64,000 bases of DNA, taken from the NCBI GenBank assembly GCA_001577025.1, contig LSCF01000001.1, positions 7,609-71,608 on the forward strand, in the 5' to 3' direction. Positions 4,343 through 48,771 of this stretch are shown one piece after another. Numbering within the stretch: the first letter of the stretch is position 1; each line of letters starts with the position of its first letter. The DNA comes from Fidelibacterota bacterium TCS55. Lineage in GTDB: Bacteria; Fidelibacterota; Marinisomatia; Marinisomatales; TCS55. Position numbers and translations under genes: made by a program. Under the pieces are notes generated by a model, which saw only the letters and a program-made list of their open reading frames with translations, ran no database searches and was not told where the DNA came from.

Positions 4343-4385
4343 AGGTGCGAAATTATCCTGACTATAAACGAGATACAATAAGCGG

Positions 4386-6822: not shown

Positions 6823-6830
6823 ATCATATG

Positions 6831-6862
6831 GAAACAAAAACGCCCCGCATTTCTGCGGGGCG
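6831..6862 (-). terminator. Rho-independent terminator after the 70-aa gene
   Basis: Perfect 9-bp GC-rich stem cgccccgca/tgcggggcg (6841..6849 / 6854..6862) with a 4-nt loop. On the minus strand it is followed by TTTTTGTTT. Confidence 0.8.
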
Positions 6863-6885
6863 TCCGTCAACTTATTTTTTGGTAC

Positions 6886-15723: not shown

Positions 15724-15846
15724 TGATTTCTCTTAAAAATTTGATGGAGAAATTACCGGCTTCATTTAGGCCTTCCAATGGAATTTGTCATATGAATTAA
15801 TTGGGGGTCATACACTTCCATCATTATTTTCATCCCCTTGGAATCA

Positions 15847-22418: not shown

Positions 22419-24283
22419 GAACGGGCCCGTTTTAGGTTTGCAGTAATGGTTTTGTCATTCGGTAAAACAGAGGATGCCAATTCGTAACAAATAATGGCCC
22501 TAGGCCGATCTCCAGATAAATAGTAAACCGTACCGAAATAGTCTAGAATTAATCCCCATCGGCGACGGACCGATTCCTCATCATTCCCCATACCTTTTAA
22601 TGCATCCTTGATAAACTGCTGTACTTTAGGGTTTTGATATTGACTATAATGGAGGCCCGCCAATGCCAATGCTTTTATATCTACATCATCATATTGTGCA
22701 TAGGTCATCATTTTTTCAATAATATCCGAATCTAAATTTTCCATCCCCGGTGTTAAATATCGTTTAATGAAATAGGTCAAATTTGAAAATTGCCCCATGG
22801 GGTGATTTAATTCCGGCTGAAGTAATAGGGCGTTTGCTTCATCGCCAATGGTATTTTCATTCACTTTTAAACGGTTGGCTATGGCAGGGTGTAGGGGTTT
22901 CAAGGGACCGTACCATTCATCGACTTTCTGTTGAAGAAAATCTACGGTCCGATCCATATGGCACTGCTGACAGGCTGATTCAAATCCTTGAGATGCATCA
23001 TAAGCCGGGCGTGGAATAGCGATGGTATGGTCTGATCGTGTAAATTGAATATCATTCCCAATTGCAGGATGCTGTCTGAAGGGCATATGGCAGGAAATAC
23101 AAGCACTTCCCTCTGATTCCGCCTTATGGAACGTATGGGCCGATATATTGTCTAATTTCGCCATATGGCAGGATGTACACTGTTTATCATCAAATCGACT
23201 AGCCAACGCAACGCGATTAATATCCTGATAATCCTGACTATGAGGATTGTGACAGCTGTTACAGGTCATGGCGCCACTTAAGAAACAATCGCTGAACACG
23301 TGGTTTTGCTGATACCCAAATGTGTGTATCCGACCATCGATGCTATATGGGTTTTCATTGCCCATAAGTGCCATTTTTAATGAATAGAATGATTCCAATT
23401 TTTCACCGGGAAGATAGCCGGGTTTAATTGGCGTTTTAACCGCATGACACTGAAAACAGTTATTTAAACTTTCTTCCTTAGAAATACCAATCAGGCTGTT
23501 CATTTCTTGCTGACCATCTTTATGAAGTATATCCGTGACGATATTTGACATGGAACTGACATGTGTTTTTGCCGGGCCATGACAGGATTCACAATTCACC
23601 GCCAAAGACATAAATTGAATATCATATTGTCCGCCCACCTTTTGAACCACAATCTGACTGCCATGGCATTGCTGGCAGTTAGATACATCTTCTATTTCGC
23701 CCAAAACGCGATGGGGTGGCCAATTATATAGATTTTCTAATGTTATATTGCCATTAATCTTTACCCATTCTTCATTATCCGCTAATTGAGCAAACCAAGA
23801 TGATTCATTGCGACTGTAATCAAATGGCAAGAAACGATAGGATCCGTCAGAATATTTACCAAAAAAAGTTTGGGTACCTCCGCCAATCATAAATCCCCCA
23901 CCCACCACAGCTTCAACTAGAATCACCTGTTCAGTCTTCTGTTGATCCACGATCCGAAATTGATATATTCCATTTTTGATTTCTGGATATACCGTTCCAT
24001 CAGAAAATTGCATTGGCGTTCCATTAAATGGTGCAATGATGCGGTCTTTTGTTGGTGCGCCTCCTGCCTTGGCGTGGGTGGAACCAGCCCATTGTTCATA
24101 TATATCCGGATGGCAGGATTGACACGGTTTAGAACCAACAAAATCAGAAAATGAAACGGATGATTTTTGAGTGGTGAAGGGAGGTAGACTTAAGACAGTT
24201 GTGGATTGTTTCTTTTTATCGCACCCAATTATGATCAGGCAGAACCAAAGCGTTATAAACCGGAGGGGATATCGGTTATTCAT
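22415..24283 (-). CDS. Octaheme c-type cytochrome lipoprotein with a C-terminal helical (TPR-like) region
   Basis: 622 aa. Lipobox IIIGC. Eight CXXCH motifs (CQSCH, CQQCH, CESCH, CFQCH, CNSCH, CTSCH, CISCH, CQQCH). The last ~150 aa are helical-repeat-like. Confidence 0.85.
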   Translation of the reverse strand: MNNRYPLRFITLWFCLIIIGCDKKKQSTTVLSLPPFTTQKSSVSFSDFVGSKPCQSCHPDIYEQWAGSTHAKAGGAPTKDRIIAPFNGTPMQFSDGTVYPEIKNGIYQFRIVDQQKTEQVILVEAVVGGGFMIGGGTQTFFGKYSDGSYRFLPFDYSRNESSWFAQLADNEEWVKINGNITLENLYNWPPHRVLGEIEDVSNCQQCHGSQIVVQKVGGQYDIQFMSLAVNCESCHGPAKTHVSSMSNIVTDILHKDGQQEMNSLIGISKEESLNNCFQCHAVKTPIKPGYLPGEKLESFYSLKMALMGNENPYSIDGRIHTFGYQQNHVFSDCFLSGAMTCNSCHNPHSQDYQDINRVALASRFDDKQCTSCHMAKLDNISAHTFHKAESEGSACISCHMPFRQHPAIGNDIQFTRSDHTIAIPRPAYDASQGFESACQQCHMDRTVDFLQQKVDEWYGPLKPLHPAIANRLKVNENTIGDEANALLLQPELNHPMGQFSNLTYFIKRYLTPGMENLDSDIIEKMMTYAQYDDVDIKALALAGLHYSQYQNPKVQQFIKDALKGMGNDEESVRRRWGLILDYFGTVYYLSGDRPRAIICYELASSVLPNDKTITANLKRARS

Positions 24284-24312
24284 AGCGATAAGTTAATCAC
24301 GAATAGATAAAA

Positions 24313-24352
24313 AAAAGCCCCGTTCATATCAAATGAACAGGGCTTTTCTATT
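24313..24352. terminator. Hairpin terminator between the PorV-like gene and the cytochrome gene
   Basis: aaaagccccgttcat / atgaacagggctttt, a 15-bp stem with one mismatch and a 5-nt loop, flanked by A-run and T-run. Confidence 0.7.
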
Positions 24353-24368: not shown

Positions 24369-25467
24369 CTAGAAACCAACATTTAAGGTAAATACGGTAT
24401 TGCCGTCAAAGTATTTAGCTGGAATGTATGCATAATCGATTGATGCATTAATTCCCAATACTTTTTGCAGATACACAGTTCCACCAAATGAAACACCGCC
24501 AAAGATATTTTCAATCTCAGATTTGCTTTCATCTACGGTTGTGGTTTCTGGATTGTCTTCAAACTCAACTGTTTCCATATCGGTCAGGAATCCTGCACGG
24601 ACAGCCAATAAACCTGGAAGGGTATAAGAACCCATGAGTTTCAATTTATCCTGTTCAAAGTTGTTACTTTCATAGGAACCGCTCACATTGATCAACAGTG
24701 CCAATAGAGTAACTGGCACCCAATTCAAATAGCATTGGTACGTCAGCTTCTGCAGCTTGCACGTTGTAAAACTGAGTAAGACGATCACTATCTACAGCAA
24801 CAGCTTTCACCAATAATCCAGATCCGCTAAACCGCATGGGACGGCCGAAGTTGCGCACAGCAACACCGACGTCTAAACCGCTCACATTTAAGAAGTCGGC
24901 ATATTGTACACCGGCATCTACTGTGATGGCCGTTCCTTTAACCCGGCGGAATCCTTCTGTTGAAGTATTCACTGAAATCCCCATGCTTGTCTTTGCAGAC
25001 ATCATGCGGGAATAGGTTAATCCTGCGGTAAAGTTAGACGGACTGAACTTCTCGCCTGTTCCATCAGGTGAGAATACAGTTGTCACAGGAATTTCGCCCA
25101 CATCAATTGAACGAATGCTGATGCCGAATGCATTCTTACCCAATTTCAGGGCAGCGCCGGCAAACAACACTGACATATCAGCTATGTATGTTCTATTTGA
25201 AAAGGATGTTTCCAAGTTACTTCCCATACGTGCAACACCTGCTGGATTCCAGTAGGATGCACCAACACCTGATGCGCTGGCCACTGCACCGCCACCTGTG
25301 AGGTAGGCTGCGCCTTGTGGAATTAACAATGCACTTGCACCGGCAGTACCGTTCCGCATACCGGAGCCAGCTGTACCACCGCCGTAAAGTTCTGTACCCT
25401 GAGCCATCAAAGACCCAATTGATAAGGTCAATACGGAGGTAATTGCTATTATTTTTCTGTTTATCAT
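24369..25467 (-). pseudogene. PorV-like T9SS-associated outer-membrane beta-barrel, split into two overlapping ORFs (24670..25467 and 24369..24788)
   Basis: The upstream ORF has a signal peptide (SIGSLMAQ) and the YWNPAGVARMG motif. The downstream ORF, in the +1 frame, continues the barrel and ends with the OMP-type terminus FTLNVGF. Protein logic places the junction near 24690..24700. Confidence 0.6.
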
Positions 25468-25486
25468 AATTATGTCTCCTTATGAC

Positions 25487-26707
25487 CTAAAAGCGTTTCG
25501 CAAATTCGTCTTCAGTGACCATTGCAAACTTCAGCACTTTCGTACCGTGGGTACCCATATCAATATGAATGATATAGACACCGCTTGCCAATGGGAAATT
25601 GTTTGAATTTCTCATATCCCATTTTTGGTACTGAGTGGTTGTCGTTTTCTTGAAGTTTGCTACCATGGTACCTGCCATATTAAATACGCGGAACGTTACA
25701 TCTCCCGTTGTGGGTAGATGATTGAATGTCACATATTTAGGTAATGGTAAAACGGAGTCTGTCCCTTCCAGATCATGGTAGCCCATGTAAGGATTCGGGA
25801 ATACATTCACCATTTTCACATCATCCGCAATATTGGTTGATTCGACCTTAGGTGCTGTAATTGTGAATTCGTCATTGAGTTGGTTTGTTTTGTTAGTAAT
25901 AATTCTAACAATTGAGCCTTTTTCAAGGCCCGTATTTAATCCACCTTCACCAGACGTTGCATCAATCGTACCATCAGACACATCATCTAGATTCCAAACG
26001 AACCATATATTTCGGCCCATTAATTCAGAACCATAATTAGTTCCATAATAATCACCGCCATCAACGTAGTTACCATTTGCATCTGGGGCACCGCCACCAG
26101 CCGCAATGGAAGCAGCTAGCCATGCCTGGTATCCTGCCTCACCGGGAGACGTATCCTCCGGCAGACGTGGGTAGGTCCAGTCTGTATAAGGATCATTAGA
26201 TCCACCAGAACCAGGATGATCATTTGGGTGCAAGCCCCAAGATTCACTGCCATCATAGTCATAGAACCATGGGCAATATCTAAAATCTAATGTTTTATTC
26301 CAGATTTCAAATCCAACACGGACTAGCGAACCAGTCGTATAAGCAGCATAAGCGTAGTTATCATCATCCCAAGTCCAGCGATACTCAATATCATTTGGAA
26401 TGAGGTACCTCCATCCACTGCCTCTGATGATTCGCGCAATCATGGCACTATAAGAATTACCACCAGCGCCACCACCATGGAAGAACCAACCTTTACCGTC
26501 AGATTGATTGACCCGTCCGGTGTAAGCAGTTGGGAATCCACCCCAGTCTTGAGAACCTTGACAAGGCGCTTCTTCCGTACAGCTTCCGTCGCCATTTGCC
26601 ACTACCAAGAAATTCTTGAAGGCATTAGGTGGACCGGTAACTTTAAAGGTTAAACCATCAGCTGCAGGGTAGCCTGGATCGTTAAATGTACCCTTGTTTA
26701 TAACCAC
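25487..26707 (-). CDS. C-terminal part of a giant T9SS cargo protein (carries a T9SS-type C-terminal sorting domain; no signal peptide of its own)
   Basis: 406 aa. CTD-like VNVFPNPYMGY...VTFRVFNMAGTMVANF...LASGVYIIHIDMG...KVLKFAMV. The frame opens immediately after a TAA, with GTG at 26707, and overlaps the upstream ORF by 26 nt in the +1 frame. Confidence 0.6.
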   Translation of the reverse strand: MVINKGTFNDPGYPAADGLTFKVTGPPNAFKNFLVVANGDGSCTEEAPCQGSQDWGGFPTAYTGRVNQSDGKGWFFHGGGAGGNSYSAMIARIIRGSGWRYLIPNDIEYRWTWDDDNYAYAAYTTGSLVRVGFEIWNKTLDFRYCPWFYDYDGSESWGLHPNDHPGSGGSNDPYTDWTYPRLPEDTSPGEAGYQAWLAASIAAGGGAPDANGNYVDGGDYYGTNYGSELMGRNIWFVWNLDDVSDGTIDATSGEGGLNTGLEKGSIVRIITNKTNQLNDEFTITAPKVESTNIADDVKMVNVFPNPYMGYHDLEGTDSVLPLPKYVTFNHLPTTGDVTFRVFNMAGTMVANFKKTTTTQYQKWDMRNSNNFPLASGVYIIHIDMGTHGTKVLKFAMVTEDEFAKRF

Positions 26708-28997
26708 TTAATATTTTTGAACCTGATGTCACATCAGTCACATTCCAAAGTAAGCTACCTTTGGTCGGTGAACCTGTAACGGTATCTTCTTCAAATGTAA
26801 CTTTATAGTCATGACCAGTCATTACACCTGGATCAATGACTTCAACCCGCCCTTGACCATCAGATGTACCAGCACTATGGGCCATATCAAAGTAATCGCC
26901 TGAGTCAACAGTATAAGCTGTTCCCGGGTCGGCCACTTTTGGCGTCACCGTCACAACAGCCATAGATGATTCAAGAGATTTAAATGGTGATTCGGCATTA
27001 TCAGCTAAATATGAATATGCACTTACACCAAAGTAGTATGGCCTATCATTCGTGATTGGACGATTTCTAATTTTATCTTCATTAACAACCACAACACGGC
27101 TAATGCCATTATCACTACCCACATGGGCAGGTTTTTCAAGAATCAGACCCGTTGCTGGATCAACTTCTTTTTCCGTAATCACCAATACACCATTGGCAAC
27201 ATCGAACTGATTGATGAGCACACCATCAGAACCAGCCGCTAAAGCGTTGGGGAGTTGATAGACCTTATATCCTTCAAAAGCGAAACCTTTATTTACAGGT
27301 TCTTCTGTAGACTTATATGCAGAAGTCGCTGCCCAGTTAAGGGTAATATAGCCATCGCCTTCAAAGATACTTACTTCCGGTGCTTTTGGTGGTGTTGGTA
27401 GAGCGAAATTGTTATCGTATGCAAACTGTGCATAAATATCGTTGTATTTCAATACAGTGATGGAGGAAAGGTTGTCGCCCCCCATACCACCGATAAGACC
27501 TACAACCACATCCTGTGTATCACCAACGCTCATTTCAAATGGTCCGGTGTTCATTACAAGACGACGGTCACCTGGTGGTAAAATAATGCCATCGATCCAG
27601 CCTGTACCGGTCGGTGGGTCACCAGCTAATACGAATTTCTCAGCTAAACCGGTTAAAGGATCCACAAAGGGTAACTGTGTTGGATATTCAGGACGAGGTA
27701 AGAATCCTTCCATGAGGTTGAACCATTGTAGTGTTCCCACATACACACGAGTATTAGGATCACTTACAGAAGAACCAGCTGCGAAGTATACGAAACTGGT
27801 CATCCCTAAGGTGTCCAAGACGCCATCACCATCAACATCCACTTTAGGCCCTTCTAAGAAGTCATAACCTGCAGCAGGTACTGGACTACCATAAGAACTA
27901 AAGAACTGGTCATCAAAGGTATTACCATTATACACATACCCCAAACTCAATGTGGTATCAGAACCTACATAGTCATCGGTATATGTACCCAAGTCAGGAT
28001 CTGACCACTGGGTAAAATAAACAGTATCTAGCTTCGCATCTGCAGGGCCACCTGGTAGACCTACATAGTTGATACGTGCTCTTTTGAACATCATGCTAGA
28101 AAGGGGGTTAGAAAATGGGAAGTCATATCCCCAAAGGGTGATCTGAATTTCAAACCCAATTGGAGGAGAACCCCAACCGCCTTCAGATACACTGACAGGC
28201 GCACCGCCAGTAAATTCATCCGGAAGGTCGTTTGCTACGGTCCAAACAGTTTGGTCTGCGCCAGGGATACCTGGAATATCGCCAACCCATTCTTTGTTTT
28301 CTTCATCCCATGTGGCTGCGGTATATGTACCATCACCATCAACATCATCAAAGGGTGCACCTTCATCTGCGGGCCAGTGTTCCCAATCATGTTGATACTG
28401 ATCTTTACCCGCTTGAATTTGGGCTTCTGTCAGGCTTGTTGGATCTGCATCTTTCAAAATGGCAATATCGCCGCGAAGGTCTGCAGTGTTCCAGTTTTTT
28501 CTCACACGCCAGATTTGTTGTTCCCGATAGTTTTCAGAATACCCGGAGTCTTTTATTTTTCCGTTGGCATCCCGAAGCACTTTACCGGCTTTAAGACCGG
28601 TATTGTACATGGATCCATTTACACGAACCCGTGGTGTACCAGCGCCGGTACCGTCTGTTTTAATGGTACCGTCTGCATTTACACCGTATTTATCGGTTAC
28701 TTTAGCGCCCCAGAGAATACCTTCAGCAAAAATGACACTCCCCATCCCTTTAGGATAGTTACCGGCAGAGCCGTGAGAGGTACCATTCCAGGCAAAGAAA
28801 CCCTGGTTTTCCATGTGAATCTTCCAACTGTTAATGTTGAAAAATGTATCGCCCGGGCCATTGTCGTCCATTTTCAATAAACGACTGGTCGCTGTTTGAC
28901 CTGCGTGCTTATCACCTCTTGGTGGTTCTGCAGACAAGACTGAAACCAACACAAGGGCACCGGTAACTGCCCAGGTTAATGATTTTTTGAAGTTCAT
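26682..28997 (-). CDS. N-terminal part of a giant secreted protein (signal peptide, DxDGDG calcium-binding-like motifs; no CTD of its own)
   Basis: I chose the start at the Met of MNFKKSLTWAVTGALVLVSVLSA, which has GGAGA upstream. Motifs DVDGDGTYT and VDVDGDGVLD. I recognise no catalytic motif. Confidence 0.7.
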   Translation of the reverse strand: MNFKKSLTWAVTGALVLVSVLSAEPPRGDKHAGQTATSRLLKMDDNGPGDTFFNINSWKIHMENQGFFAWNGTSHGSAGNYPKGMGSVIFAEGILWGAKVTDKYGVNADGTIKTDGTGAGTPRVRVNGSMYNTGLKAGKVLRDANGKIKDSGYSENYREQQIWRVRKNWNTADLRGDIAILKDADPTSLTEAQIQAGKDQYQHDWEHWPADEGAPFDDVDGDGTYTAATWDEENKEWVGDIPGIPGADQTVWTVANDLPDEFTGGAPVSVSEGGWGSPPIGFEIQITLWGYDFPFSNPLSSMMFKRARINYVGLPGGPADAKLDTVYFTQWSDPDLGTYTDDYVGSDTTLSLGYVYNGNTFDDQFFSSYGSPVPAAGYDFLEGPKVDVDGDGVLDTLGMTSFVYFAAGSSVSDPNTRVYVGTLQWFNLMEGFLPRPEYPTQLPFVDPLTGLAEKFVLAGDPPTGTGWIDGIILPPGDRRLVMNTGPFEMSVGDTQDVVVGLIGGMGGDNLSSITVLKYNDIYAQFAYDNNFALPTPPKAPEVSIFEGDGYITLNWAATSAYKSTEEPVNKGFAFEGYKVYQLPNALAAGSDGVLINQFDVANGVLVITEKEVDPATGLILEKPAHVGSDNGISRVVVVNEDKIRNRPITNDRPYYFGVSAYSYLADNAESPFKSLESSMAVVTVTPKVADPGTAYTVDSGDYFDMAHSAGTSDGQGRVEVIDPGVMTGHDYKVTFEEDTVTGSPTKGSLLWNVTDVTSGSKILSGYKQGYI

Positions 28998-29035
28998 AAA
29001 AGTCTCCACTGTTTTAAGTAGGTTCATCAGTCATC

Positions 29036-32000
29036 CTAGAAGGAGACCTGAATACCTGTTTTAATTTCACGAGGAATACCGAACATATCAAATCCATGGT
29101 CATTCAACCAGTGATTCCGGTTGGCTAGATTGATTTTCCGATACATCTCCACATATTCAGGACCACGACCTTCGATAATCAAAGAACTCAGCGCCGGGTC
29201 ACTTAAGAATCCATCATCATAAGGATCACCAGTACGGTTATACACGTTGATAATGTGTTGTGTATTCAGCACATTTTCGATGGTTATCCATGCTTTAATA
29301 TTGGTTGGACCGACTCTAAACGTCTTGTCAACAGATAGATCCAAATTAAAGTATGAAGGTGTTACCGATGAGTTAATCGGTTCTATTGGTGCACGGTTAC
29401 GTGGGTCATTATCAGAGAGCAATGCACCTTCACCTGCGTCACGCTGCCCCATAGAGCCGTCTGACAAGGTGTAAGGGTGACCACTGTTTATTGAAGCGAT
29501 CAGGTTGGCACCTAAATTATCCGTTAACACATTGCCAGTTCTGCCGGTTCTGTAATCCAGAATAGCACTGGCTTGATGGCGCTGATCGTAACGCGTGGGT
29601 GCAATTGTGGTGGGCTTACCCCAGCCAGATGTACCCAGACCAGGATAAGAGTTCAAACCTCTTGTATCCTGGAATACGTAGTTTGCAAATAACTGGACGT
29701 TCTTTACGCGAGCCGTTTTAAAATCAACTTCGACACCTGTTACGTTTGAAAAATCTGAATTGACCCAAATACCATGGTTTCTCATCTGGAAGTAGTTCAT
29801 CCCAGGAGAACTGTCTGGTGTATACTCATCTTCGCCGATCTGATCCTGTGGATTCCGGGTAAATACAGTCACGTCAAGTGATGCAACATCACCAATCAAT
29901 GTACCATAACCAATTTCAAACTTGGTTTCTCTTACAGGTTTTAAACCCCAAGAGGAGCGGCCTGAACCGCGGCTGCGGTACAATTGGCTCATAGGTGCCA
30001 TTTGAACATATTTACCATAGTTCAAGTGGAATGTTGAGCGATCAGAAATGGGGAAACCTAAACCGATACGGGGCATGAGATAGCTCTGTGTAGGCATATC
30101 TTTGAATCCATAATCAGCATGGTCTGCCGCAACGATGGTTGCGTTTTTATCCAATGGTGGATTGTCATAATCTTTCAGGTCTTTATTGGCCTGGTTGATG
30201 GCTTCATAGCGAATACCTACATTTACAATCAGGTCACCAGCTTCGAATTTATCATTTACATAAAATGACATATTCCATGGTTCACGCGGTTTATCATATT
30301 CATTTTTTTGTGCTGAGGAAGCATCCCACTCTCTACCCAGTGGATCATAGCCCTGCCAGCTAGAAAGACGGGCAGTTACAATCTCCGTCAAGATACGATC
30401 AGTTTCACCATTTACATCATCTACTAAAGTGGGATCCTGCCCAATTTTGGAGTTCAGAGAGTTGACACCCCAATAACTATAGCGTTTGTAGTTCCATTTT
30501 GTGTAATCCGCGCCAATCTTTAACTCATGTTCACCCATTTGGCTTACAAACTCTGCATCAAAACCGATGTACCCATCCTCGCCTTTACTGTATCCACCAC
30601 GACGGGCACCATCTCTAGAAAATCTGAACCCATTGATGTTGTAGCTGGTAGGCTCATTATACTGGTACCCAGCAGCCCAGGGGTCTTGCCCTGGTGTGCC
30701 GAAATGGCCAGCCCAATTTGAATCTACATTGGCCACTTCATCGCGATTGCCCCATTTGAGCCAATCTTGAAGTTTGCTATTATGTCCTGTTTTAAAAATA
30801 CCTGCTTCTTTAAACGCTTTATCATAGCTTTCATACTTCCGGCCCATGGTACGCACATTGGCACGAACATAGGTGCTGGCATTTAAGAAATAGGTGGCTT
30901 TCAAATTGATCAGATGGCTTTGGCCGGCACTTTCATGACGGCGAGTGTTGAACATATTTGAAATGGGCTTCCCTGCACCAGAGTTTGTATAAGAACTATA
31001 AGTACCTGCCAAGCGCAAGATTATGGGGTTCATATCCCACTGAAGGGTTCCATTAAAACTCAATTCATCCGAAAGGTTGTCAAAGGCATATCCTTTGTTG
31101 CTGCCGCGGAGTGGGCCATCAGCTTCTGCATCATAAGCACCATCATGGTCCACATCACGGAACACATAGCTACCGTTTACATGGTCTAGCACCATCATAT
31201 CGCCAGATGGGGTTAGGCCACCGATTTTATCTTCTATAGGGTTGCCTTCGCCAATAGTAAACGGGGTAAACCATCTGCTTGTGGAGCTATAATTATCTGT
31301 AGATGTTTGTCTCAGTGCGCCAAAGAAACGAATATTGTTGCCAATGGGCCCTTGGAGCGTTAGAGTCATATCTTTATCGCCTGTGGCTGCCCAGGGATCT
31401 CCGCTCTGCATACCTTCTGTGAGAATACTTCCAGAGAGCCGGCTACCACCAGTCTTTAGAGATTGTTGAACCATCCCAGCGTTGGCTTTACCAATACTGG
31501 CATCAAAGCCACCCACCTGAACGGCAATGGCTTCCAGCGCTTCTGGAATGGCGTTTGAAACAACCTTCCCACTGGCACCTGACATGGATGCACCTTCAAG
31601 CGTATAGCCAATTTCTTCACTACGGCTACCGCGAATGTGCAGACCGTCATGCATTTTGATTACACCAGCTTGACTGGCTACCATGTTTGTGACATTACGC
31701 ACAGCGTAATTCTCAATGGCTTCTGAGTCAATGGTTCTGGCGACGTTTGTTTGCGTAACCTCAATCAAAGGCTTTTCAGCGGTTACTTCCACTGTTTCAC
31801 CTTCAACTGCAGCTACTTCTAATTCAAAGTCTTGTACAGTTGTCAAACCGATGGTTACACGTACGTTTGAAATAATTTGGGATTTGTACCCAATATAGTT
31901 CACACGCAACGTATAGATACCCGGCTGGACATCAAAAATGTAATATACCCCTGATTCGTCTGTTGCCGCACCACTTGAAGTTCCTTCAAGGATGACGTTA

Positions 32001-32119
32001 GCACCAACCAATGGCTGGCCATCAGACGTAACAGTACCACTAATTTTACCGGTAAGGTTCTGAGCGAACAGACCTGCGGTCATCAAAGCGGCTAAGAATA
32101 AGATTGTAAGTTTTTTCAT
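29036..32119 (-). CDS. TonB-dependent receptor with an N-terminal carboxypeptidase-regulatory-like domain
   Basis: I chose the start at MKKLTILFLAALMTAGLFAQ, with GGAG upstream. GKISGTVTSDGQPLVGANVILEG (CarbopepD_reg), TonB-box-like ETVEVTAEKP, plug (LHIRGSRSEEIGYTLEG) and a large barrel ending ...IQVSF. Confidence 0.85.
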   Translation of the reverse strand: MKKLTILFLAALMTAGLFAQNLTGKISGTVTSDGQPLVGANVILEGTSSGAATDESGVYYIFDVQPGIYTLRVNYIGYKSQIISNVRVTIGLTTVQDFELEVAAVEGETVEVTAEKPLIEVTQTNVARTIDSEAIENYAVRNVTNMVASQAGVIKMHDGLHIRGSRSEEIGYTLEGASMSGASGKVVSNAIPEALEAIAVQVGGFDASIGKANAGMVQQSLKTGGSRLSGSILTEGMQSGDPWAATGDKDMTLTLQGPIGNNIRFFGALRQTSTDNYSSTSRWFTPFTIGEGNPIEDKIGGLTPSGDMMVLDHVNGSYVFRDVDHDGAYDAEADGPLRGSNKGYAFDNLSDELSFNGTLQWDMNPIILRLAGTYSSYTNSGAGKPISNMFNTRRHESAGQSHLINLKATYFLNASTYVRANVRTMGRKYESYDKAFKEAGIFKTGHNSKLQDWLKWGNRDEVANVDSNWAGHFGTPGQDPWAAGYQYNEPTSYNINGFRFSRDGARRGGYSKGEDGYIGFDAEFVSQMGEHELKIGADYTKWNYKRYSYWGVNSLNSKIGQDPTLVDDVNGETDRILTEIVTARLSSWQGYDPLGREWDASSAQKNEYDKPREPWNMSFYVNDKFEAGDLIVNVGIRYEAINQANKDLKDYDNPPLDKNATIVAADHADYGFKDMPTQSYLMPRIGLGFPISDRSTFHLNYGKYVQMAPMSQLYRSRGSGRSSWGLKPVRETKFEIGYGTLIGDVASLDVTVFTRNPQDQIGEDEYTPDSSPGMNYFQMRNHGIWVNSDFSNVTGVEVDFKTARVKNVQLFANYVFQDTRGLNSYPGLGTSGWGKPTTIAPTRYDQRHQASAILDYRTGRTGNVLTDNLGANLIASINSGHPYTLSDGSMGQRDAGEGALLSDNDPRNRAPIEPINSSVTPSYFNLDLSVDKTFRVGPTNIKAWITIENVLNTQHIINVYNRTGDPYDDGFLSDPALSSLIIEGRGPEYVEMYRKINLANRNHWLNDHGFDMFGIPREIKTGIQVSF

Positions 32120-32494
32120 TACACTACTCCACTTATTGTTACTATTTAGTTTTATAAAATCTTTGAGGGCGCTCAAATACGTACAAATGACGTAGCGATA
32201 CACCTCTATCACTCTTACCTCTGACCCCAAAAACTAAGCTTTTTTATTAAAGTATAACAAACTTTTTTTAATTTTTTATTATTATAGATATTGGCTCAAC
32301 AAAACGGTGATTTATACTCGGTGGTGACCGCTACTATTTTCAATTATTCTTTCGCTAATTAATATTCTGGCGAACCTCAAATACAAAAATCCATAGATTG
32401 AATCCGTAAATGAAAATGAGGTCTGAAATCGGCTTTACGAGGGATAGATGTATTTTTTCGGCTGAAAAGAGGTCACTCAAATCCGGATGGCTCG

Positions 32495-33217
32495 CTAGCC
32501 TCCAAATAACGAAAATAGCATCCACATGGTCATTAGGAGCATAATACTGTTTTCAATCAATGTGGCTTTGGTCATGGGCAATTGCAATGCGGTCCCCAAA
32601 CAGGCACATTGAATTTGGGACTTGATGAATAAAGCCCGAACCACACCAACGGTAGTGGCGCCTAGAATTATTAGAGTGATAATCAGAGACGGGAATAGTG
32701 CAATCCGCAAAAGAAATGCCAGCCCCAGAGCCGTTTCAATAAAAGGGTACACCCACCCATAAGCAGGAACTGCTTTTGCAATAGGGTCGTACATGGCAAA
32801 TGTTTGGGGGAAGTTTTTGTAATCCAAAAATTTGAAAAAGCTAAATACAATATAGAATAGCCCCATAAAGTCGTACATGAATCCGGCTACTGTAATTTCC
32901 GATCGATTCATGAGCAATGTAGCTACGATGATATAAAAGAAAATGAGAAACAGCGGGAACAGCTGTTTTAAATCGGTTGATGGTGATGCTTCTAAGTCGA
33001 GTTCAGGCAGCGCTTCTGATAATTGTAGCGCTGCTTCATATCCCGTTTTTGAAACAGCATCAATAAGTAACTCTGCCTCTGCCTCTCCCTTTATCACTGC
33101 CGTTTCATTTGAAAGGCTTACCTTAACGGATACAACGCCGGGCACTTGGGATAAAGCCCGTTCAATGGTAGAGACGCATCCAGCGCAGTGCATCCCCTCG
33201 ATGGATAGCTCAACCAT
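32495..33217 (-). CDS. Heavy-metal-associated (HMA) domain fused to a MauE-like 4-5 TM membrane domain
   Basis: N-terminal GMHCAGCVSTIERAL ferredoxin-like HMA domain. The C-terminal polytopic domain carries a CACLG motif reminiscent of the MauE-type CxCxG motif. Confidence 0.7.
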   Translation of the reverse strand: MVELSIEGMHCAGCVSTIERALSQVPGVVSVKVSLSNETAVIKGEAEAELLIDAVSKTGYEAALQLSEALPELDLEASPSTDLKQLFPLFLIFFYIIVATLLMNRSEITVAGFMYDFMGLFYIVFSFFKFLDYKNFPQTFAMYDPIAKAVPAYGWVYPFIETALGLAFLLRIALFPSLIITLIILGATTVGVVRALFIKSQIQCACLGTALQLPMTKATLIENSIMLLMTMWMLFSLFGG

Positions 33218-33718: not shown

Positions 33719-33846
33719 TCCTTATTACAATTTAGGTGTATTTACGCATAGGTCTACAAATTATCCATGTTTGAATCGAGTGACAGTTTTAACTTTATCC
33801 ACTTTTTTAGTCATATTTCGGAAAAAATCAAATGAGGGGGAAGATC

Positions 33847-36396
33847 ATGAAACCATTATTATTTTGCCTTTTAGTTTCAATAGGCTGGGCAGAACAAACC
33901 ATTGATTTGCCCATGAAGATTAGGGGCGTTCGTTATAATTCATCCATTTCAAAACCAGAAGATATCCTGGGTCATAAGGTGGGCACACGACATACCCGCA
34001 CCGATCAAGTAGTAGACTATTTTGAAGCCTTGGCATCTCAAAGCAACCGTATCATTTTGAATGATCATGCTGTTACTCACGAAGGGCGACGACTCATCCA
34101 TGCTATTGTCACCCATCCTGATAACCATAAAAATCTGGAAGCGATTCGACAGGCCAACTTGTCATTGTCTGATCATCCGAATAAAGTGAAGGATCTTCAA
34201 TTAAATGATATGCCCATGGTGGCTTATCTCGGATTTTCTATTCATGGTGATGAAGCCAGTGGCACAGAAGCCAGTCTGCTTTTGCTCTATCACTTGGCAG
34301 CAGGTATGGGAAATGAAATTGACGAAATTTTAAAGCATACAGTCCTCATTGTGGACCCCATGTTTAACCCTGATGGACGAGATCGTTTCGTGAATTGGGT
34401 AAATGGGAATCGTGGATTGATTGCCACATCAGATATACAGGATCGTGAACATAACCAGCCCTGGCCAAGGGGTAGAACCAATCATTATTTATTTGATATG
34501 AATCGGGATTGGATGCCCGTGACCCAGCCCGAATCCAATGGTCGGATTAAACTCTTTCACCACTGGCGACCACAATTCTTATTGGATGCACATGAAATGG
34601 GAAGCAATGCTACATTCTTCTTCCAGCCGGGTATCCCCAGCCGCAATAACCCAAACACCCCTCAAGGCACCATTGATTTGGCTAATAAACTAGCCCCCTA
34701 TCATGCTAAACGATTAGACAGCATTCAGTCCATGTATTATTCCCAACAGTCCTACGATGACTTTTATTATGGAAAAGGATCTACCTTTGGGGACATCCAT
34801 GGATCTGTAGGTATTTTGTTTGAGCAGGCATCCTCAAGATCTCTTGAGACCGAAACCAACCAGGGGCGGCTGACTTATGCATTTTCTGTCCGGAATCAAT
34901 TTATAACCACCTTAGGGACCTTGGACGGTCTGGTGGCTCTTCGGACAGACTTTTTAAAGTATCATCGGGATTTTTATGCCACGGCTCCGGATGCGGCCAG
35001 AAAAAATTCAGTGAAAGGATATTTAATCAGCTTAAAACAAAACAGAACACGGGCGCAAATGCTGATTCAAAATCTTCAGAAACACCGCATCCGTGCCCAT
35101 GGACTCAAAAAATCAATGACAATAAACCAGGTTAAATATCAACCGGGCGAAGCGGTTATCATTCCGTCAAATCAACCCCAAACCCGTTTTCTAAAAGGGG
35201 TGATGGAGCGCGTCACGACCTTTGAGGATTCTCTCTTTTATGATGTATCTGCATGGACCCTGCCCCTGGCATACGGTGTGGACTCCCACGAGCTAAAGCA
35301 AGTGCCTAAATCCTATATGGGCCCTGCTCTGCCCTATATGGAATTGGATGGCGGCCATGTCATCGGCGGTAAGGCAACAGCGGCATATCTTATGACATGG
35401 GATAGATATTATGCTCCAAAGAGCCTTTATAGTATTATGGATGCGGGGATTCGTCCCAGACTTACCACCGCGCCATTTTCTGCAACTGTAGGTGGAAAAG
35501 CTATGCAGTTTGATAGGGGCACCATTGTGATTCCTATGATACAACGTGATGCAGATGCCACCATTTCTCAAGATGAAATACATACCATGATGGCAGACTT
35601 GGCCAAAACCGATCATGTGCGCATTTTTGCAACCCAATCGGCAACCACACCTTCAGGCCCTGATCTAGGCGGTGCCTATCAAGGAGTGCTCCAAAAACCG
35701 AAAATAGCCATTTTGGCCGGTGATGGCACTTCATCCTATGGTGTGGGAGAAATTTGGCATTTGCTCAATTTTAGGATGCATATGCCTGCATCCCTACTGA
35801 ATGCAGATAATTTTACAGCATCCAAATTGGCGAAATACAATACCATTATTGTGCCCGATGGCTCCTATTCAAAATTGGATTCTTTAGAAATTAAAATCTT
35901 GAAAAAATGGATTTCTAATGGCGGTACGTTGATTTCAACCCAAACGGGATCCAGATGGGTGGTTTCCAAAAAAATCGTGGCCGAAAAAATGAAAAAGGCA
36001 AAAAAGGATACCTTAGATATCCCCTACGATCAAGTATCTATGGTCACGGGCGCCCAGCGGATTGGTGGTGCCATTTTTGAAGTAAGCATTGACAACACTC
36101 ATCCCATTGCTTATGGTTATAAACAAAAAGCTCCCATGTTCAGGCGGGGCGATGCTTTTATTGAATTATCTACATCCACAGGAGCCAATGTAGCGCGGTA
36201 TACAAAATCTCCTCTTTTGAGTGGTTATATTTCAGAAGAGAAGTTGGCAGAAATTAAAAATTCAGCTTCAATCATCGCCCGACGTCAGGGCCGTGGCCAT
36301 GTGGTTTTATTTGCTGACAATCCTGCTTTCCGCGCATTTTGGTACGGGTCGAATGGGTTGCTATTAAATGCTGTTCTTTTTGGTCGAGTATTCTAA
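33847..36396 (+). CDS. M14-family zinc carboxypeptidase, long form (~850 aa), secreted
   Basis: Signal MKPLLFCLLVSIGWA. Zinc and catalytic motifs IHGDEASGTE, NPDGRD and DAHEMG. Long C-terminal extension. Paralogue of 59855..62467. Confidence 0.85.
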   Translation: MKPLLFCLLVSIGWAEQTIDLPMKIRGVRYNSSISKPEDILGHKVGTRHTRTDQVVDYFEALASQSNRIILNDHAVTHEGRRLIHAIVTHPDNHKNLEAIRQANLSLSDHPNKVKDLQLNDMPMVAYLGFSIHGDEASGTEASLLLLYHLAAGMGNEIDEILKHTVLIVDPMFNPDGRDRFVNWVNGNRGLIATSDIQDREHNQPWPRGRTNHYLFDMNRDWMPVTQPESNGRIKLFHHWRPQFLLDAHEMGSNATFFFQPGIPSRNNPNTPQGTIDLANKLAPYHAKRLDSIQSMYYSQQSYDDFYYGKGSTFGDIHGSVGILFEQASSRSLETETNQGRLTYAFSVRNQFITTLGTLDGLVALRTDFLKYHRDFYATAPDAARKNSVKGYLISLKQNRTRAQMLIQNLQKHRIRAHGLKKSMTINQVKYQPGEAVIIPSNQPQTRFLKGVMERVTTFEDSLFYDVSAWTLPLAYGVDSHELKQVPKSYMGPALPYMELDGGHVIGGKATAAYLMTWDRYYAPKSLYSIMDAGIRPRLTTAPFSATVGGKAMQFDRGTIVIPMIQRDADATISQDEIHTMMADLAKTDHVRIFATQSATTPSGPDLGGAYQGVLQKPKIAILAGDGTSSYGVGEIWHLLNFRMHMPASLLNADNFTASKLAKYNTIIVPDGSYSKLDSLEIKILKKWISNGGTLISTQTGSRWVVSKKIVAEKMKKAKKDTLDIPYDQVSMVTGAQRIGGAIFEVSIDNTHPIAYGYKQKAPMFRRGDAFIELSTSTGANVARYTKSPLLSGYISEEKLAEIKNSASIIARRQGRGHVVLFADNPAFRAFWYGSNGLLLNAVLFGRVF

Positions 36397-38793: not shown

Positions 38794-38811
38794 ATTTATA
38801 TTCTCCTTACC

Positions 38812-42051: not shown

Positions 42052-42278
42052 ATACATGCCCTCCAAGATGATTAATAATAAAAGAGCCTCTCTTTAGAAA
42101 GGCCCTAGTTAAGTCTTCGGGTGGAGATTAAGACCTATATAATAGATTATCCAACCTTTTTTTAATTTTTATTTTTTGACTCATTTTCTTGGATTTTGAT
42201 CGATTTCACCTAAAATTAATTCATCATTTTTCCTACCCAAACTGGAGAATCCTTGACGAGGCAACCCAAAACGACTTC

Positions 42279-48710: not shown

Positions 48711-48771
48711 TTTACATTCATCCCTTTTTGTAAAATCGACACCTTATTTTTCATCTAATTAAACAGAACTG

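What the first reader, a model, noticed from the sequence alone, without database searches (positions are those of the whole stretch)
24369..32119. Operon of TonB-dependent receptor, ~1,170-aa T9SS cargo and PorV-like barrel: a possible SusCD-like uptake module with a T9SS-anchored partner
Three minus-strand genes are packed with 38-nt and 19-nt gaps and closed by one hairpin terminator (24313..24352).
- **Gene 1:** a CarbopepD_reg/plug/barrel TonB-dependent receptor.
- **Gene 2:** a very large secreted protein with DxDGDG motifs and a T9SS C-terminal sorting domain.
- **Gene 3:** a PorV-like barrel. PorV is the family known to shuttle CTD cargo.

There is no SusD-like lipoprotein. The slot immediately after the transporter, which SusD occupies in Bacteroidota, is taken by a T9SS cargo, and its likely shuttle is encoded in cis. 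I recognise no catalytic or binding domain in the cargo. I am not aware that this architecture has been functionally characterised.
Basis: partly seen in the sequence, partly recalled or inferred. Interest (0 to 1): 0.7.

Follow-up and report, generated by a model that had tools for sequence, protein, structure and literature searches.

The report
TonB receptor, surface protein, dedicated PorV-like carrier
Three adjacent outer-membrane genes (a TonB-dependent transporter, a large secreted protein with an unusual type IX secretion tail, and a PorV-like barrel) form an uncharacterised module kept intact across at least six bacterial phyla; it probably captures a nutrient at the cell surface, though two of its three genes carry frameshifts in this genome.

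Summary
The three minus-strand genes, their 38-nt and 19-nt gaps and the terminator are real. A relative with 95% nucleotide identity has both genes intact, and dN/dS downstream of each break is still about 0.09.

The order TBDR, cargo, PorV-like is conserved in Marinimicrobia, KSB1, Calditrichota (including cultured Caldithrix abyssi), Latescibacterota, Ignavibacteria-labelled and Gemmatimonadota genomes. A TBDR lies upstream in 71/71 loci and a PorV-like gene downstream in 57/58.

The receptor is a genuine TonB-dependent transporter but not SusC/RagA. The barrel belongs to the PorV/PorQ family but is not a PorV, PorQ or PorV2 equivalog. The cargo is an all-beta protein with no recognisable catalytic domain.

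New finding: cargos in the module carry a divergent sorting domain with a conserved C-terminal extension ending in an aromatic residue. Seven family members with a canonical type A tail all lie outside the module.

Best reading (about 0.5): a nutrient-capture partner held on a dedicated carrier barrel beside its transporter. This resembles SusCD and Slam/TBDR/lipoprotein clusters by analogy, not homology. Substrate, complex formation and export route are untested.

The parts
29036..32119 (-). TonB-dependent transporter, 1027 aa. It has a signal peptide, a CarboxypepD_reg N-terminal extension, a TonB-box-like motif (GETVEVTAEKPL), a plug, a large barrel and a C-terminal Phe. It is intact in the window.
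   Evidence: - Pfam: CarboxypepD_reg 64.9 bits, Plug 21.9 bits.
- A profile of 24 orthologues hits the barrels of PhuR and Cir and the plugs of PqqU and YncD in the PDB.
- The TonB box, the IRGxR plug motif and the terminal aromatic residue are conserved in the orthologue alignment.
- No TIGR04056 SusC/RagA hit.
25487..28997 (-). Cargo gene. After repair it encodes 1169 aa: a Sec signal peptide, a beta-super-sandwich N-domain, an Fn3-like domain, variable beta domains and a divergent T9SS CTD. In the window it is split into ORFs 26682..29027 and 25487..26707.
   Evidence: - Intact homologues of 1155-1196 aa cover 100% of the query at up to 96% identity.
- AF2 model: pLDDT 77.5, nearly all beta.
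- 2,472 50%-identity cluster representatives at E<=1e-30.
26690..26694 (-). Frameshift 1. The window lacks 2 nt (GA) relative to the intact relative L001 (CAAGG--GTACA against CAAGGGAGTAC).
   Evidence: - locate the indel.
- dN/dS downstream is 0.091 against 0.118 upstream, and there are no further stops.
27384..28862 (-). Conserved N-terminal domain of the cargo (residues about 56-548). It holds most of the family-invariant residues (W, Y, D, E, N, Q; no invariant Cys or His) and two DxDGDG loops.
   Evidence: - Invariant columns in alignment A3.
- AF2 model: pLDDT 79, pTM 0.85.
- Foldseek: weak local matches to non-catalytic N-terminal sandwich domains of GH94, GH116, GH15 and PL enzymes (best E 4e-5, TMq 0.2-0.36).
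25490..25804 (-). Divergent C-terminal sorting domain. It is type-A-like, with an insertion after the NPY motif and a roughly 10-residue conserved extension (...KFAMVTEDEFAKRF) that ends in an aromatic residue.
   Evidence: - TIGR04183 25.9 bits (cut-off 23); PF18962 23.8 bits (cut-off 27).
- The tail is conserved in all complete module cargo C-termini (alignment A7).
- A tail-specific HMM scores module cargos above 100 bits and canonical CTDs at 14-28 bits without the tail.
24369..25467 (-). PorV/PorQ-family outer-membrane barrel, 365 aa after repair. It is the proposed dedicated carrier or anchor for the cargo CTD. In the window it is split into ORFs 24670..25467 and 24369..24788.
   Evidence: - NF033709 95 bits against a cut-off of 90. 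Orthologues score 148-170 bits over the full model.
- The orthologue profile hits the F. johnsoniae PorV structure 6h3i_F at E 4e-18.
- Scores fall below the equivalog cut-offs of PorV, PorQ, PorV2 and BamG.
24693..24697 (-). Frameshift 2. The window has 1 extra nt relative to L001 (GGCACTGTTGATC against GGCACTA-TGATC).
   Evidence: - locate the indel.
- dN/dS downstream is 0.094.
24311..24349 (-). Intrinsic terminator that closes the three-gene unit: a 17-bp stem, a 5-nt loop and a T-run.
32120..32494 (-). 375-nt upstream intergenic region, the presumed promoter or regulatory region of the unit. No promoter was identified.
   Evidence: - ORF map.
- Four of the seven indels against L001 fall here, as expected for non-coding DNA.
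- The sigma-70 scan is no better than shuffled sequence.

Best explanation
**What it is**
The three genes encode one outer-membrane module.

**Proposed mechanism**
1. The cargo is exported by Sec and then crosses the outer membrane by the type IX route.
2. Its specialised C-terminal domain, with its conserved extension, is recognised by the PorV/PorQ-family barrel encoded next to it.
3. That barrel stays bound to the uncleaved CTD and holds the cargo on the cell surface. PorQ holds PorZ this way, PorV holds PorU, and SprF-type carriers hold type B adhesins.
4. The surface-held cargo captures a still unknown substrate with its conserved N-terminal sandwich domain and its variable middle domains.
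5. It passes the substrate to the TonB-dependent transporter encoded immediately upstream, which imports it.

**Shown versus inferred**
- Shown: the family assignments, conservation of the module, and the exclusive link between the special CTD and the module.
- Inferred: the carrier-CTD pairing, CTD retention, contact with the transporter, uptake, and the substrate.

**In this genome**
The cargo and barrel genes are frameshifted. The module is therefore either recently inactivated or mis-assembled here.
For: **Conserved co-linear module**
- A TBDR lies immediately upstream in 71/71 loci. A PorV-like gene lies immediately downstream in 57/58.
- This holds down to 33% cargo identity, in Marinimicrobia, KSB1, Calditrichota, Latescibacterota, Ignavibacteria-labelled and Gemmatimonadota genomes.
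- Gaps between genes are short or the genes overlap.

**The receptor looks like an active importer**
- The TonB box, plug motif and barrel are conserved. The C. abyssi orthologue has Plug and TonB_dep_Rec_b-barrel hits.

**The barrel is PorV/PorQ family but a distinct clade**.

**A natural comparison links the special CTD to the module**
- 433 of 495 family members carry the special CTD with a complete tail.
- Seven members with canonical type A tails (P0098, P0101, P0102, P0103, P0138, P0169, P0264) have no PorV-like gene in their loci. No TBDR was found in the upstream DNA available, which is 100-600 nt for four of them.
- Fisher p is about 1e-8. This is not corrected for phylogeny.

**The same genome also holds ordinary T9SS cargo**
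- The protein at 44127..46154 has a canonical CTD (PF18962 43 bits) and no PorV-like gene beside it.

**Copy number behaves like a nutrient system, not like machinery**
- C. abyssi has one TBDR, one barrel and three cargo paralogues.
- Latescibacterota loci have tandem TBDR-cargo pairs.
- The cargo middle region is variable, with variants of about 1300 aa.

**Literature precedents**
- PorZ and PorU keep their CTDs and are anchored by PorQ and PorV. Cognate PorV-like barrels have been proposed to protect CTDs from cleavage (PMC10202324, PMC7463736).
- Carrier proteins bind CTDs through their extracellular loops, and type B carriers anchor their cargo (PMC10994853).
- PorV co-purifies with a TBDR in Cytophaga hutchinsonii (PMC8564354).
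Against: - There is no direct evidence that the three proteins touch each other. No multimer modelling was available.
- No substrate clue comes from gene context. Flanking genes differ between phyla and are not CAZyme or peptidase loci.
- The fold matches of the N-domain are weak (TMq 0.2-0.36, high rmsd), so ligand binding by it is conjecture.
- I could not check that these genomes encode the T9SS core (SprA, PorK-N, PorU). The C. abyssi genome paper reports no Bacteroidetes-type gliding machinery (PMC5317091).
- The association between CTD type and module is not phylogenetically independent.
- In the window itself, two of the three genes are disrupted.
Confidence: 0.5

Rival explanations
1. 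The triad is an accessory part of the type IX secretion or attachment machinery rather than an uptake system. It would comprise a PorF-like TBDR-type barrel, a PorV/PorQ-like barrel and a PorZ- or PorU-like surface component that keeps its CTD.
For: - PorF (PG0534) is a TBDR-like T9SS component of unknown function (PMC5445135, PMC7463736).
- PorV co-immunoprecipitates with SprA and a PorF-like TBDR in C. hutchinsonii (PMC8564354).
- A large CTD protein followed by a PorV-family gene mirrors the porU-porV layout (from my own knowledge, not checked here).
- The best whole-chain Foldseek hit is PorZ (E 7e-6).
Against: - NCBIfam PorU and PorZ models align only to the CTD, at 15-20 bits against cut-offs of 420 and 260. 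The PorZ fold hit has TM 0.09.
- There is no invariant Cys or His that a sortase would need.
- The module is multi-copy or expanded in some genomes, and the cargo middle region is variable. That is atypical for core machinery.
- The barrel does not reach the PorV or PorQ equivalog cut-offs.
Confidence: 0.15
2. The TBDR-like barrel is itself the export channel for the cargo, energised by TonB as Oar is for PopC in Myxococcus. The PorV-like barrel receives the exported CTD. This would be a self-contained export-and-anchor device independent of SprA.
For: - Oar, a TBDT, is required for PopC secretion (PMC6434023).
- The module is self-contained and sits in phyla where the canonical T9SS core is not documented. 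The C. abyssi genome paper found no gliding-type machinery.
- The CTD is atypical.
Against: - The same genomes hold many canonical-CTD proteins with no TBDR beside them. That implies a general type IX route exists.
- A roughly 125-kDa folded multi-domain protein is unlikely to pass a plugged 22-strand barrel.
- In the T11SS/TBDR clusters, the closest genomic analogue, the TBDR imports (PMC8406197).
Confidence: 0.07
3. The cargo is a surface adhesin or coat protein held on its own carrier barrel, like SprB on SprF. The neighbouring TBDR is co-transcribed but does not work with it.
For: - The cargo is built of beta-sandwich, Fn3 and Ig-like domains with Ca-binding-type loops, as many adhesins are.
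- Canonical-CTD relatives sit among cadherin-, cohesin- and dockerin-like CTD proteins.
Against: - 71/71 adjacency to one orthologous TBDR clade across at least six phyla, with short gaps, is hard to explain without a shared function.
- The adhesin-like neighbourhoods belong to the relatives that lack the special CTD.
Confidence: 0.13
4. This concerns the window only. The module is a pair of recent pseudogenes (real frameshifts) rather than an assembly artefact, so this strain has lost the function.
For: - Both indels lie outside long homopolymers. They are the only frame-breaking indels in 11.1 kb of alignment to L001.
- Both fall in the same operon. Rho, FolC, enolase, pyruvate kinase, the TBDR and the cytochrome are intact.
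Against: - dN/dS after each break (about 0.09) equals that before it, and no secondary stops occur. Any inactivation would be very recent.
- Strain-mixed MAG consensus sequences can create such indels in variable surface-protein genes.
- No reads are available to check.
Confidence: 0.45

Closest known systems
PorQ-PorZ and PorV-PorU pairs of the T9SS attachment complex (Porphyromonas gingivalis)
   Same: - A PorV/PorQ-family 14-strand-type barrel holds a large surface protein through a type-A-like CTD that is not cleaved (PMC10202324, PMC7463736).
- The barrel here belongs to that family (NF033709; PDB PorV hit at E 4e-18).
   Different: - The cargo is not PorZ or PorU.
- The barrel is not a PorV, PorQ or PorV2 equivalog.
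- The pair is fused genetically to a TonB-dependent transporter.
- The CTD has a family-specific C-terminal extension.
- CTD retention has not been shown here.
SprB-SprF and other type B CTD cargo with adjacent PorP/SprF-like carrier genes (Flavobacterium)
   Same: A cargo-specific carrier barrel is encoded next to its cargo and anchors it on the surface after export (PMC10994853, PMC10202324).
   Different: - Here the CTD is type-A-like (TIGR04183), not type B.
- The carrier is PorV/PorQ-family, not PorP/SprF.
- There is no link to gliding.
- A TBDR is part of the unit.
SusCD / RagAB transporters and utilisomes of Bacteroidota
   Same: - A TonB-dependent transporter with a CarboxypepD_reg N-terminal extension is followed directly by the gene for a surface-exposed partner.
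- Copies can be tandem or multiple.
   Different: - The receptor fails the SusC/RagA model.
- The partner is an all-beta T9SS substrate, not an alpha-helical SusD lipoprotein.
- Surface anchoring would be through a carrier barrel, not a lipid.
- The resemblance is analogy only.
Slam / type XI secretion clusters (DUF560 barrel + TBDR + TbpB-, HpuA- or hemophilin-type cargo) in Proteobacteria
   Same: The three-part logic is the same: a dedicated outer-membrane barrel that puts a cargo on the surface, a cargo recognised through a C-terminal beta domain, and a TBDR that imports what the cargo captures (PMC8406197, PMC5449769).
   Different: - There is no homology. No DUF560 or TbpBBD match was found.
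- The phyla differ.
- The cargo here is about 5-10 times larger.
- The substrate is unknown.
PorF (PG0534) / CHU_1606, TBDR-like proteins linked to the T9SS
   Same: A TBDR-type barrel is associated functionally or physically with PorV (PMC8564354, PMC5445135).
   Different: - Homology to the module's TBDR could not be tested.
- PorF is about 92 kDa, against about 113 kDa here.
- As far as I know, porF is not encoded beside a CTD cargo and a PorV-like gene (own knowledge).

Membership tests
TonB-dependent transporter | N-terminal plug domain | tested here: met
   - Pfam Plug scores 21.9 bits in the window protein, just under the cut-off of 23.9.
- The orthologue profile matches the plugs of PqqU and YncD.
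- The C. abyssi orthologue has a precomputed Plug hit.
- The IRG(S/G)R motif is conserved in the orthologue alignment.
TonB-dependent transporter | TonB box ahead of the plug | tested here: met
   A GE.V.(V/I)(T/V)AE(K/R)PL-type motif is conserved across the 24 aligned orthologues. This is a sequence motif only; function was not tested.
TonB-dependent transporter | 22-strand C-terminal barrel with a terminal aromatic residue | tested here: met
   - The profile matches the barrels of PhuR (E 1.6e-10) and Cir.
- The L022 orthologue matches the TIGR01785 and TIGR01783 barrel regions.
- The C. abyssi orthologue has a PF00593 hit.
- The last residue is mostly F or Y.
- Strand number was not modelled.
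SusC/RagA subfamily | Match to TIGR04056 at or above 368 bits, plus the SusC signature | tested here: not met
   - The window protein gives no hit.
- The L022 orthologue scores 50.7 bits, over the N-terminal extension only.
- The window's other receptor (38812..42066) scores 523 bits.
SusCD system | SusD-like lipoprotein encoded downstream | tested here: not met
   The downstream protein has a Sec type I signal with no lipobox Cys, is all-beta and carries a CTD.
T9SS type A CTD substrate | C-terminal sorting domain matching TIGR04183 / PF18962 | tested here: inconclusive
   - TIGR04183 scores 25.9 bits, above its cut-off of 23.
- PF18962 scores 21.8-23.8 bits, below its cut-off of 27.
- AF2 predicts a beta-sandwich at 1099-1171 followed by an extra helix at 1173-1178.
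- The domain forms its own subclass.
T9SS type A CTD substrate | Export through SprA/Sov, and cleavage and attachment by PorU | not testable with these tools
   Genome-wide content of the source organism is not available, and there is no experiment.
PorV/PorQ family (NF033709) | Score at or above 90 bits on the family model, and FadL-like barrel homology to PorV | tested here: met
   - The repaired window protein scores 95.1 bits.
- Orthologues score 170 and 148 bits over the full model.
- The profile hits PorV structure 6h3i_F at E 4e-18.
PorV, PorQ or PorV2 equivalogs | Scores at or above 250 (PorV), 220 (PorQ) or 325 (PorV2) bits | tested here: not met
   Scores are 38-73 for PorV, 44-75 for PorQ and 31-65 for PorV2.
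PorU sortase / PorZ | Full-length match to NF033707 or NF052228; a catalytic Cys/His pair for PorU | tested here: not met
   - Only the CTD aligns, at 15.5 and 20.5 bits.
- The 781-aa N-terminal part has no NCBIfam hit.
- There is no invariant Cys or His in 56 sequences.
Slam / T11SS | DUF560 (PF04575) barrel and TbpBBD cargo domain | tested here: not met
   No such Pfam hits appear even at E<=10. The resemblance is architectural only.
PorF / Oar-like TBDTs | Orthology to PG0534 or to M. xanthus Oar | not testable with these tools
   No reference sequences or models were on hand. No Pfam barrel model of any kind matched the window protein.

The most novel reading that the evidence does not exclude
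The triad is a self-contained export-and-anchor device. The TonB-energised TBDR-like barrel lets the cargo out, as Oar does for PopC. The PorV-like barrel catches the cargo's extended CTD. This would give FCB phyla without gliding-type machinery a route for CTD proteins that does not use SprA.
Probability: 0.07. Interest if true: 0.9.

Novelty: new variant of a known kind. Interest (0 to 1): 0.65.

Why it matters
- **Ecology.** Marinimicrobia (SAR406), Latescibacterota, KSB1, Calditrichota and Gemmatimonadota are abundant and mostly uncultured degraders. How they take up substrates across the outer membrane is poorly known, because the SusD-type partners of Bacteroidota are rare outside that phylum.
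- **Scale.** The cargo family has about 2,500 clusters at 50% identity and is found in 361 species-level genomes. A module this widespread that joins a TonB-dependent transporter to a T9SS-type surface protein and a private carrier barrel would be a third solution to one problem. That problem is placing a capture protein next to an importer. The known solutions are SusCD lipoproteins and Slam-dependent lipoproteins.
- **T9SS biology.** The module would define a new CTD subclass paired with a new PorV/PorQ clade. That extends the 'cognate carrier' idea from type B to type-A-like signals.
- **Testability.** Cultured Caldithrix abyssi DSM 13497 carries the module (cargo gene Calab_2073 and its flanking genes), so the idea can be tested directly.

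Tried and rejected
- **Known domain or enzyme in the cargo: nothing found.**
  - Pfam and NCBIfam on both cargo halves and on intact P0001 gave only the CTD, even at E<=10.
  - PDB sequence search gave nothing.
- **Whole-chain Foldseek: not used as function evidence.** Hits to PorZ, alpha-2-macroglobulin and GH65/GH116 N-domains had TM <=0.16 and reflect generic beta-sandwich or CTD similarity.
- **N-domain Foldseek: structural hint only.** It matched only the non-catalytic super-sandwich domains of GH94, GH116, GH15 and PL enzymes, with no (alpha/alpha)6 catalytic domain. I did not call the cargo a glycosidase.
- **Programmed frameshifting: rejected.** Neither break is conserved in the 95%-identical L001 or in any of about 75 other loci.
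- **A second triad at 56433..63668: rejected.** Those genes are a TolB-propeller/amidohydrolase, an M14 peptidase and an M19 peptidase.
- **Substrate clues from flanking genes: none.** Neighbours are lineage-specific.
  - Marinimicrobia: a CopA-like ATPase or an HMA-MauE gene upstream, and a multihaem cytochrome downstream.
  - KSB1/Calditrichota-type loci: DUF4397 upstream and a GWxTD protein downstream.
  - Gemmatimonadaceae locus L065: unrelated housekeeping and transport genes.
- **Literature: no description of this module.** I searched Marinimicrobia with T9SS or TonB, PorV-like, GWxTD and the Calab locus tags.
- **Cultured hosts:** none among Gemmatimonadota hits; Caldithrix abyssi was found among Calditrichota hits.
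- **The window's exact TBDR protein is not in the public gene index.** The source assembly could not be traced.

Full report
**1. What is in the window**

- The minus strand between 24369 and 32119 holds five ORFs, not three:
  - 29036..32230, with the real start at 32119 (MKKLTILF...);
  - 26682..29027 (781 aa);
  - 25487..26707 (406 aa);
  - 24670..25467 (265 aa);
  - 24369..24788 (139 aa).
- The first ORF is a TonB-dependent receptor with CarboxypepD_reg (64.9 bits) and Plug (21.9 bits) hits.
- The second and third ORFs are the two halves of one gene. The third carries a weak T9SS sorting domain: TIGR04183 scores 25.9 against a cut-off of 23, and PF18962 scores 23.8 against 27.
- The fourth and fifth ORFs are the two halves of a PorV/PorQ-family barrel. 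NF033709 scores 95 bits against a cut-off of 90.
- A strong hairpin with a T-run at 24311..24349 closes the unit.
- Joining the halves gives a 1169-aa cargo and a 365-aa barrel.

**2. The frameshifts**

- The closest public relative is locus L001, whose cargo P0001 is 96% identical. Its layout is the same: HMA-MauE, TBDR (1027 aa), cargo (1179 aa), barrel (365 aa), multihaem cytochrome (622 aa). Both the cargo and the barrel are intact there.
- Window and L001 share 94.9% nucleotide identity over 11.1 kb. Only seven indels separate them:
  - four are intergenic;
  - one is an in-frame 3-nt indel;
  - one is a 2-nt deletion at about 26692;
  - one is a 1-nt insertion at about 24695.
- Neither frame-breaking indel is in a long homopolymer.
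- dN/dS downstream of each break is 0.091 and 0.094. Upstream it is 0.118 and 0.179, and it is 0.105 for the TBDR. There are no secondary stops.
- Housekeeping genes in the window (rho, folC, eno, pyk) are intact.
- The breaks are therefore either very recent inactivations or consensus errors. They are not programmed, because no relative shares them. I put the odds near even and treat the genes as representatives of a functional family.

**3. Origin**

- Cargo homologues at 72-88% identity come from MAGs labelled Candidatus Marinimicrobia, Neomarinimicrobiota or Marinisomatales.
- The window is rich in peptidases: M1, two M14, M19, M20, M28 and three amidohydrolases. In my own knowledge that fits this peptide-degrading phylum.

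**4. Conservation of the triad**

- The cargo family is large.
  - 1,177 clusters at 90% identity match the window query.
  - 2,472 representatives at 50% identity match at E<=1e-30.
  - 361 species-level genomes encode a relative.
- In the 79 fetched loci, phmmer with the three window proteins gave these results:
  - a TBDR orthologue lies immediately upstream on the same strand in 71 of 71 loci with at least 1 kb of upstream DNA;
  - a PorV-like orthologue lies immediately downstream in 57 of 58 loci with at least 600 nt of downstream DNA.
- Cargo identity in these loci falls as low as 33%.
- The record labels span Marinimicrobia, KSB1, Calditrichota, Latescibacterota, Ignavibacteriae/Ignavibacteriales and Gemmatimonadota. 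A few Bacteroidota or Cytophagia labels also appear, and some look mis-binned.
- Variants exist:
  - Latescibacterota loci L068 and L070 have tandem TBDR-cargo-TBDR-cargo;
  - KSB1 locus L063 has two tandem cargos with a shortened tail and no barrel;
  - KSB1/Calditrichota-type loci add a DUF4397 gene upstream and a GWxTD-domain gene downstream.
- Cultured Caldithrix abyssi DSM 13497 has one TBDR (996 aa), the cargo Calab_2073 (1124 aa), one barrel (344 aa) and two further cargo paralogues.
- Flanking genes otherwise differ between lineages and give no substrate clue.

**5. The three proteins**

*Receptor*
- A profile of 24 orthologues matches the barrels of PhuR and Cir and the plugs of PqqU and YncD.
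- A TonB-box-like motif, the IRGxR plug motif and a terminal aromatic residue are conserved in the alignment.
- It is not SusC/RagA. TIGR04056 gives no hit for the window protein, and only the N-terminal extension matches in an orthologue.
- The window's other receptor, at 38812..42066, scores 523 bits on that model.

*Barrel*
- Orthologues score 148-170 bits on the PorV/PorQ family model across its full length. None reaches the PorV, PorQ, PorV2 or BamG equivalog cut-offs.
- The profile hits the F. johnsoniae PorV structure at E 4e-18.
- No other PorV-like gene occurs in the 1.25 Mb of window and loci searched.

*Cargo*
- The AF2 model has pLDDT 77.5 and is almost all beta. Its parts are:
  - a signal peptide;
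  - a conserved N-domain (about residues 56-545) that holds nearly all the invariant residues (W, Y, D, E, N, Q; no invariant Cys or His);
  - an Fn3-like domain;
  - variable beta domains;
  - the CTD.
- The N-domain alone models at pTM 0.85. It resembles, weakly, only the non-catalytic N-terminal super-sandwich of GH94, GH116, GH15 and PL enzymes.
- No catalytic domain, PorU homology or PorZ homology was found.

**6. A distinct sorting domain tied to the module**

- Every complete module cargo C-terminus, in all the phyla sampled, shares one CTD form. It has an insertion after the NPY motif and a conserved extension of about 10 residues, (V/I)xE(Q/E)Q(F/V/I)Lxx(Y/F/W), that ends the protein.
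- AF2 models this extension as a short helix after the last CTD strand.
- An HMM of this CTD scores module cargos above 100 bits to its last position. It scores canonical CTDs at 14-28 bits, and those alignments stop before the tail.
- Among the 495 family members retrieved:
  - 433 have the special CTD with a complete tail;
  - 25 have a variant or incomplete tail;
  - the remaining 37 scored weakly or not at all, and by their C-terminal residues about 20-25 of them have an ordinary type A ending (...KKITLLK).
- I looked up seven of the ordinary-tail members: P0098, P0101, P0102, P0103, P0138, P0169 and P0264.
  - None has a PorV-like gene in its locus (HMM check).
  - No TBDR was found in the upstream DNA available, which is only 100-600 nt for four of them.
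  - Their neighbours are other CTD proteins: FG-GAP, cadherin-like, and cohesin- or dockerin-like.
- P0092, a 1306-aa variant with the special tail, is in a triad.
- The contrast is 57/58 against 0/7, Fisher p about 1e-8. It is not corrected for shared ancestry.
- The window also encodes an ordinary CTD protein at 44127..46154 (PF18962 43 bits) with no barrel beside it. General type IX cargo and the specialised pair therefore coexist in one genome.

**7. Mechanism**

- Published work provides the precedents:
  - T9SS carrier barrels bind CTDs through their extracellular loops and leave the translocon with the substrate (PMC10994853);
  - type B cargo stays anchored on cognate PorP/SprF carriers (PMC10994853);
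  - PorZ and PorU keep their CTDs and are anchored by PorQ and PorV (PMC7463736);
  - cognate PorV-like barrels have been proposed to shield CTDs from cleavage (PMC10202324).
- The exclusive pairing of a special CTD with a private PorV/PorQ-clade barrel fits that pattern. I infer that the barrel is the cargo's dedicated carrier and anchor (about 0.65).
- I infer that the anchored cargo serves the upstream transporter as a capture partner (about 0.45-0.5) from three observations:
  - adjacency to one TBDR clade is invariant;
  - the TonB box is conserved;
  - expansions look like those of nutrient systems, with three cargos per TBDR in C. abyssi, tandem pairs in Latescibacterota and a variable cargo middle region.
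- The closest architectural analogues are SusCD and the Slam/T11SS clusters of barrel, TBDR and surface cargo (PMC8406197). Neither is homologous.
- The substrate is unknown. The sandwich fold hints at glycans, and the receptor barrel is nearest to haem and siderophore receptor models. Both hints are weak.

**8. Rivals**

- *T9SS accessory complex.* PorF (PG0534) is a TBDR-like T9SS component of unknown function, and PorV co-purifies with a PorF-like TBDR in Cytophaga (PMC8564354, PMC5445135). Copy-number behaviour, the lack of PorU or PorZ homology and the variable middle region argue against this.
- *Oar/PopC-type export through the TBDR* (PMC6434023). I cannot exclude it, because the T9SS core of these genomes could not be inspected, and the C. 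abyssi genome paper reports no gliding-type machinery (PMC5317091). The many canonical-CTD proteins in the same genomes imply that a general route exists.
- *An adhesin merely co-transcribed with a TBDR.* The 71/71 adjacency is hard to reconcile with this.

**9. Verdict**

It is only analogical about SusCD.
- No paper found in the library describes this module.
- I rate it a new variant of known kinds (T9SS cargo-carrier pairs; TBDT plus surface partner). It has a concrete new element, the CTD subclass linked to a new PorV/PorQ clade and a TBDR. It also has a cultured organism in which to test it.

Noticed in passing
window 37078..42066 (-): A true SusC/RagA-family receptor (38812..42066; TIGR04056 523 bits) is followed by a 571-aa protein. 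That protein has a lipoprotein signal (LNGC) but no Pfam, NCBIfam or PDB sequence hit. It is probably a very divergent SusD-like partner, so both receptor architectures coexist in this genome.
   Followed up: partly
window 44127..46154 (+): A 675-aa protein carries a canonical type A T9SS CTD (PF18962 43 bits, ending ...KTNKLLFMK). No PorV-like gene or TBDR lies beside it. I used it as an internal contrast to the module's divergent CTD.
   Followed up: partly
window 22415..24283 (-); L001, L004-L009, L086-L087: A 622-aa multihaem c-type cytochrome with an MtrC/OmcA-like domain lies directly downstream of the module's terminator on the same strand. This adjacency is kept in at least 12 Marinimicrobia loci but not in other phyla.
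   Followed up: partly
window 32495..33217 (-); L009, L086, L087: An HMA (CopZ-like)-MauE fusion gene lies upstream of the module. In several other Marinimicrobia loci, a CopA-like P-type ATPase directly precedes the TBDR on the same strand. Any link to metals is untested.
   Followed up: no
window 10153..12711, 15838..17547, 33832..36396, 46977..50172, 52826..54601, 56433..63668: The window has an unusually high density of peptidases and amidohydrolases: M1, two M14, M19, M20, M28-PDZ, two Amidohydro_3 proteins and a TolB-propeller/amidohydrolase fusion. This fits a peptide-scavenging lifestyle.
   Followed up: partly
L021-L024, L037, L038, L042 and related KSB1/Calditrichota-type loci: A DUF4397 protein lies immediately upstream of the TBDR (9 loci). 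A roughly 490-aa GWxTD-domain protein (PF20094/TIGR04514) lies immediately downstream of the PorV-like gene (12 loci), on the same strand. This may be a five-gene version of the module. The library holds no papers mentioning GWxTD.
   Followed up: partly
L068 and L070 (Latescibacterota chromosomes); L091 (Caldithrix abyssi): The module expands in some genomes. L068 and L070 have tandem TBDR-cargo-TBDR-cargo. C. abyssi has one TBDR and one barrel followed by two extra cargo paralogues, one of which has a shortened tail (...VIASEQMH).
   Followed up: partly
L063 (KSB1 MAG JAJDAE010000315.1): Two tandem cargo genes have a truncated tail (...NLKIALQFLPIFK and ...QFLSKY). No PorV-like gene occurs in 5.9 kb downstream. 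This is the single exception to the triad rule.
   Followed up: no
L049 (PAWD01000038.1) and L081 (DMRV01000366.1): Contigs that carry this bacterial module or cargo are filed in MAGs labelled 'Thaumarchaeota archaeon' and 'Flavobacteriales bacterium'. The cargo is 46% identical to Marinimicrobia proteins, so these contigs are probably mis-binned.
   Followed up: no
window 2849..6870 (-): Three overlapping minus-strand ORFs occur here: 2849..4606, which holds an AmiC-like amidase domain at residues 335-575, plus 4386..6074 and 6001..6870, which have no family hits. The overlaps may come from alternative start codons or from further frame problems. I did not resolve this.
   Followed up: no
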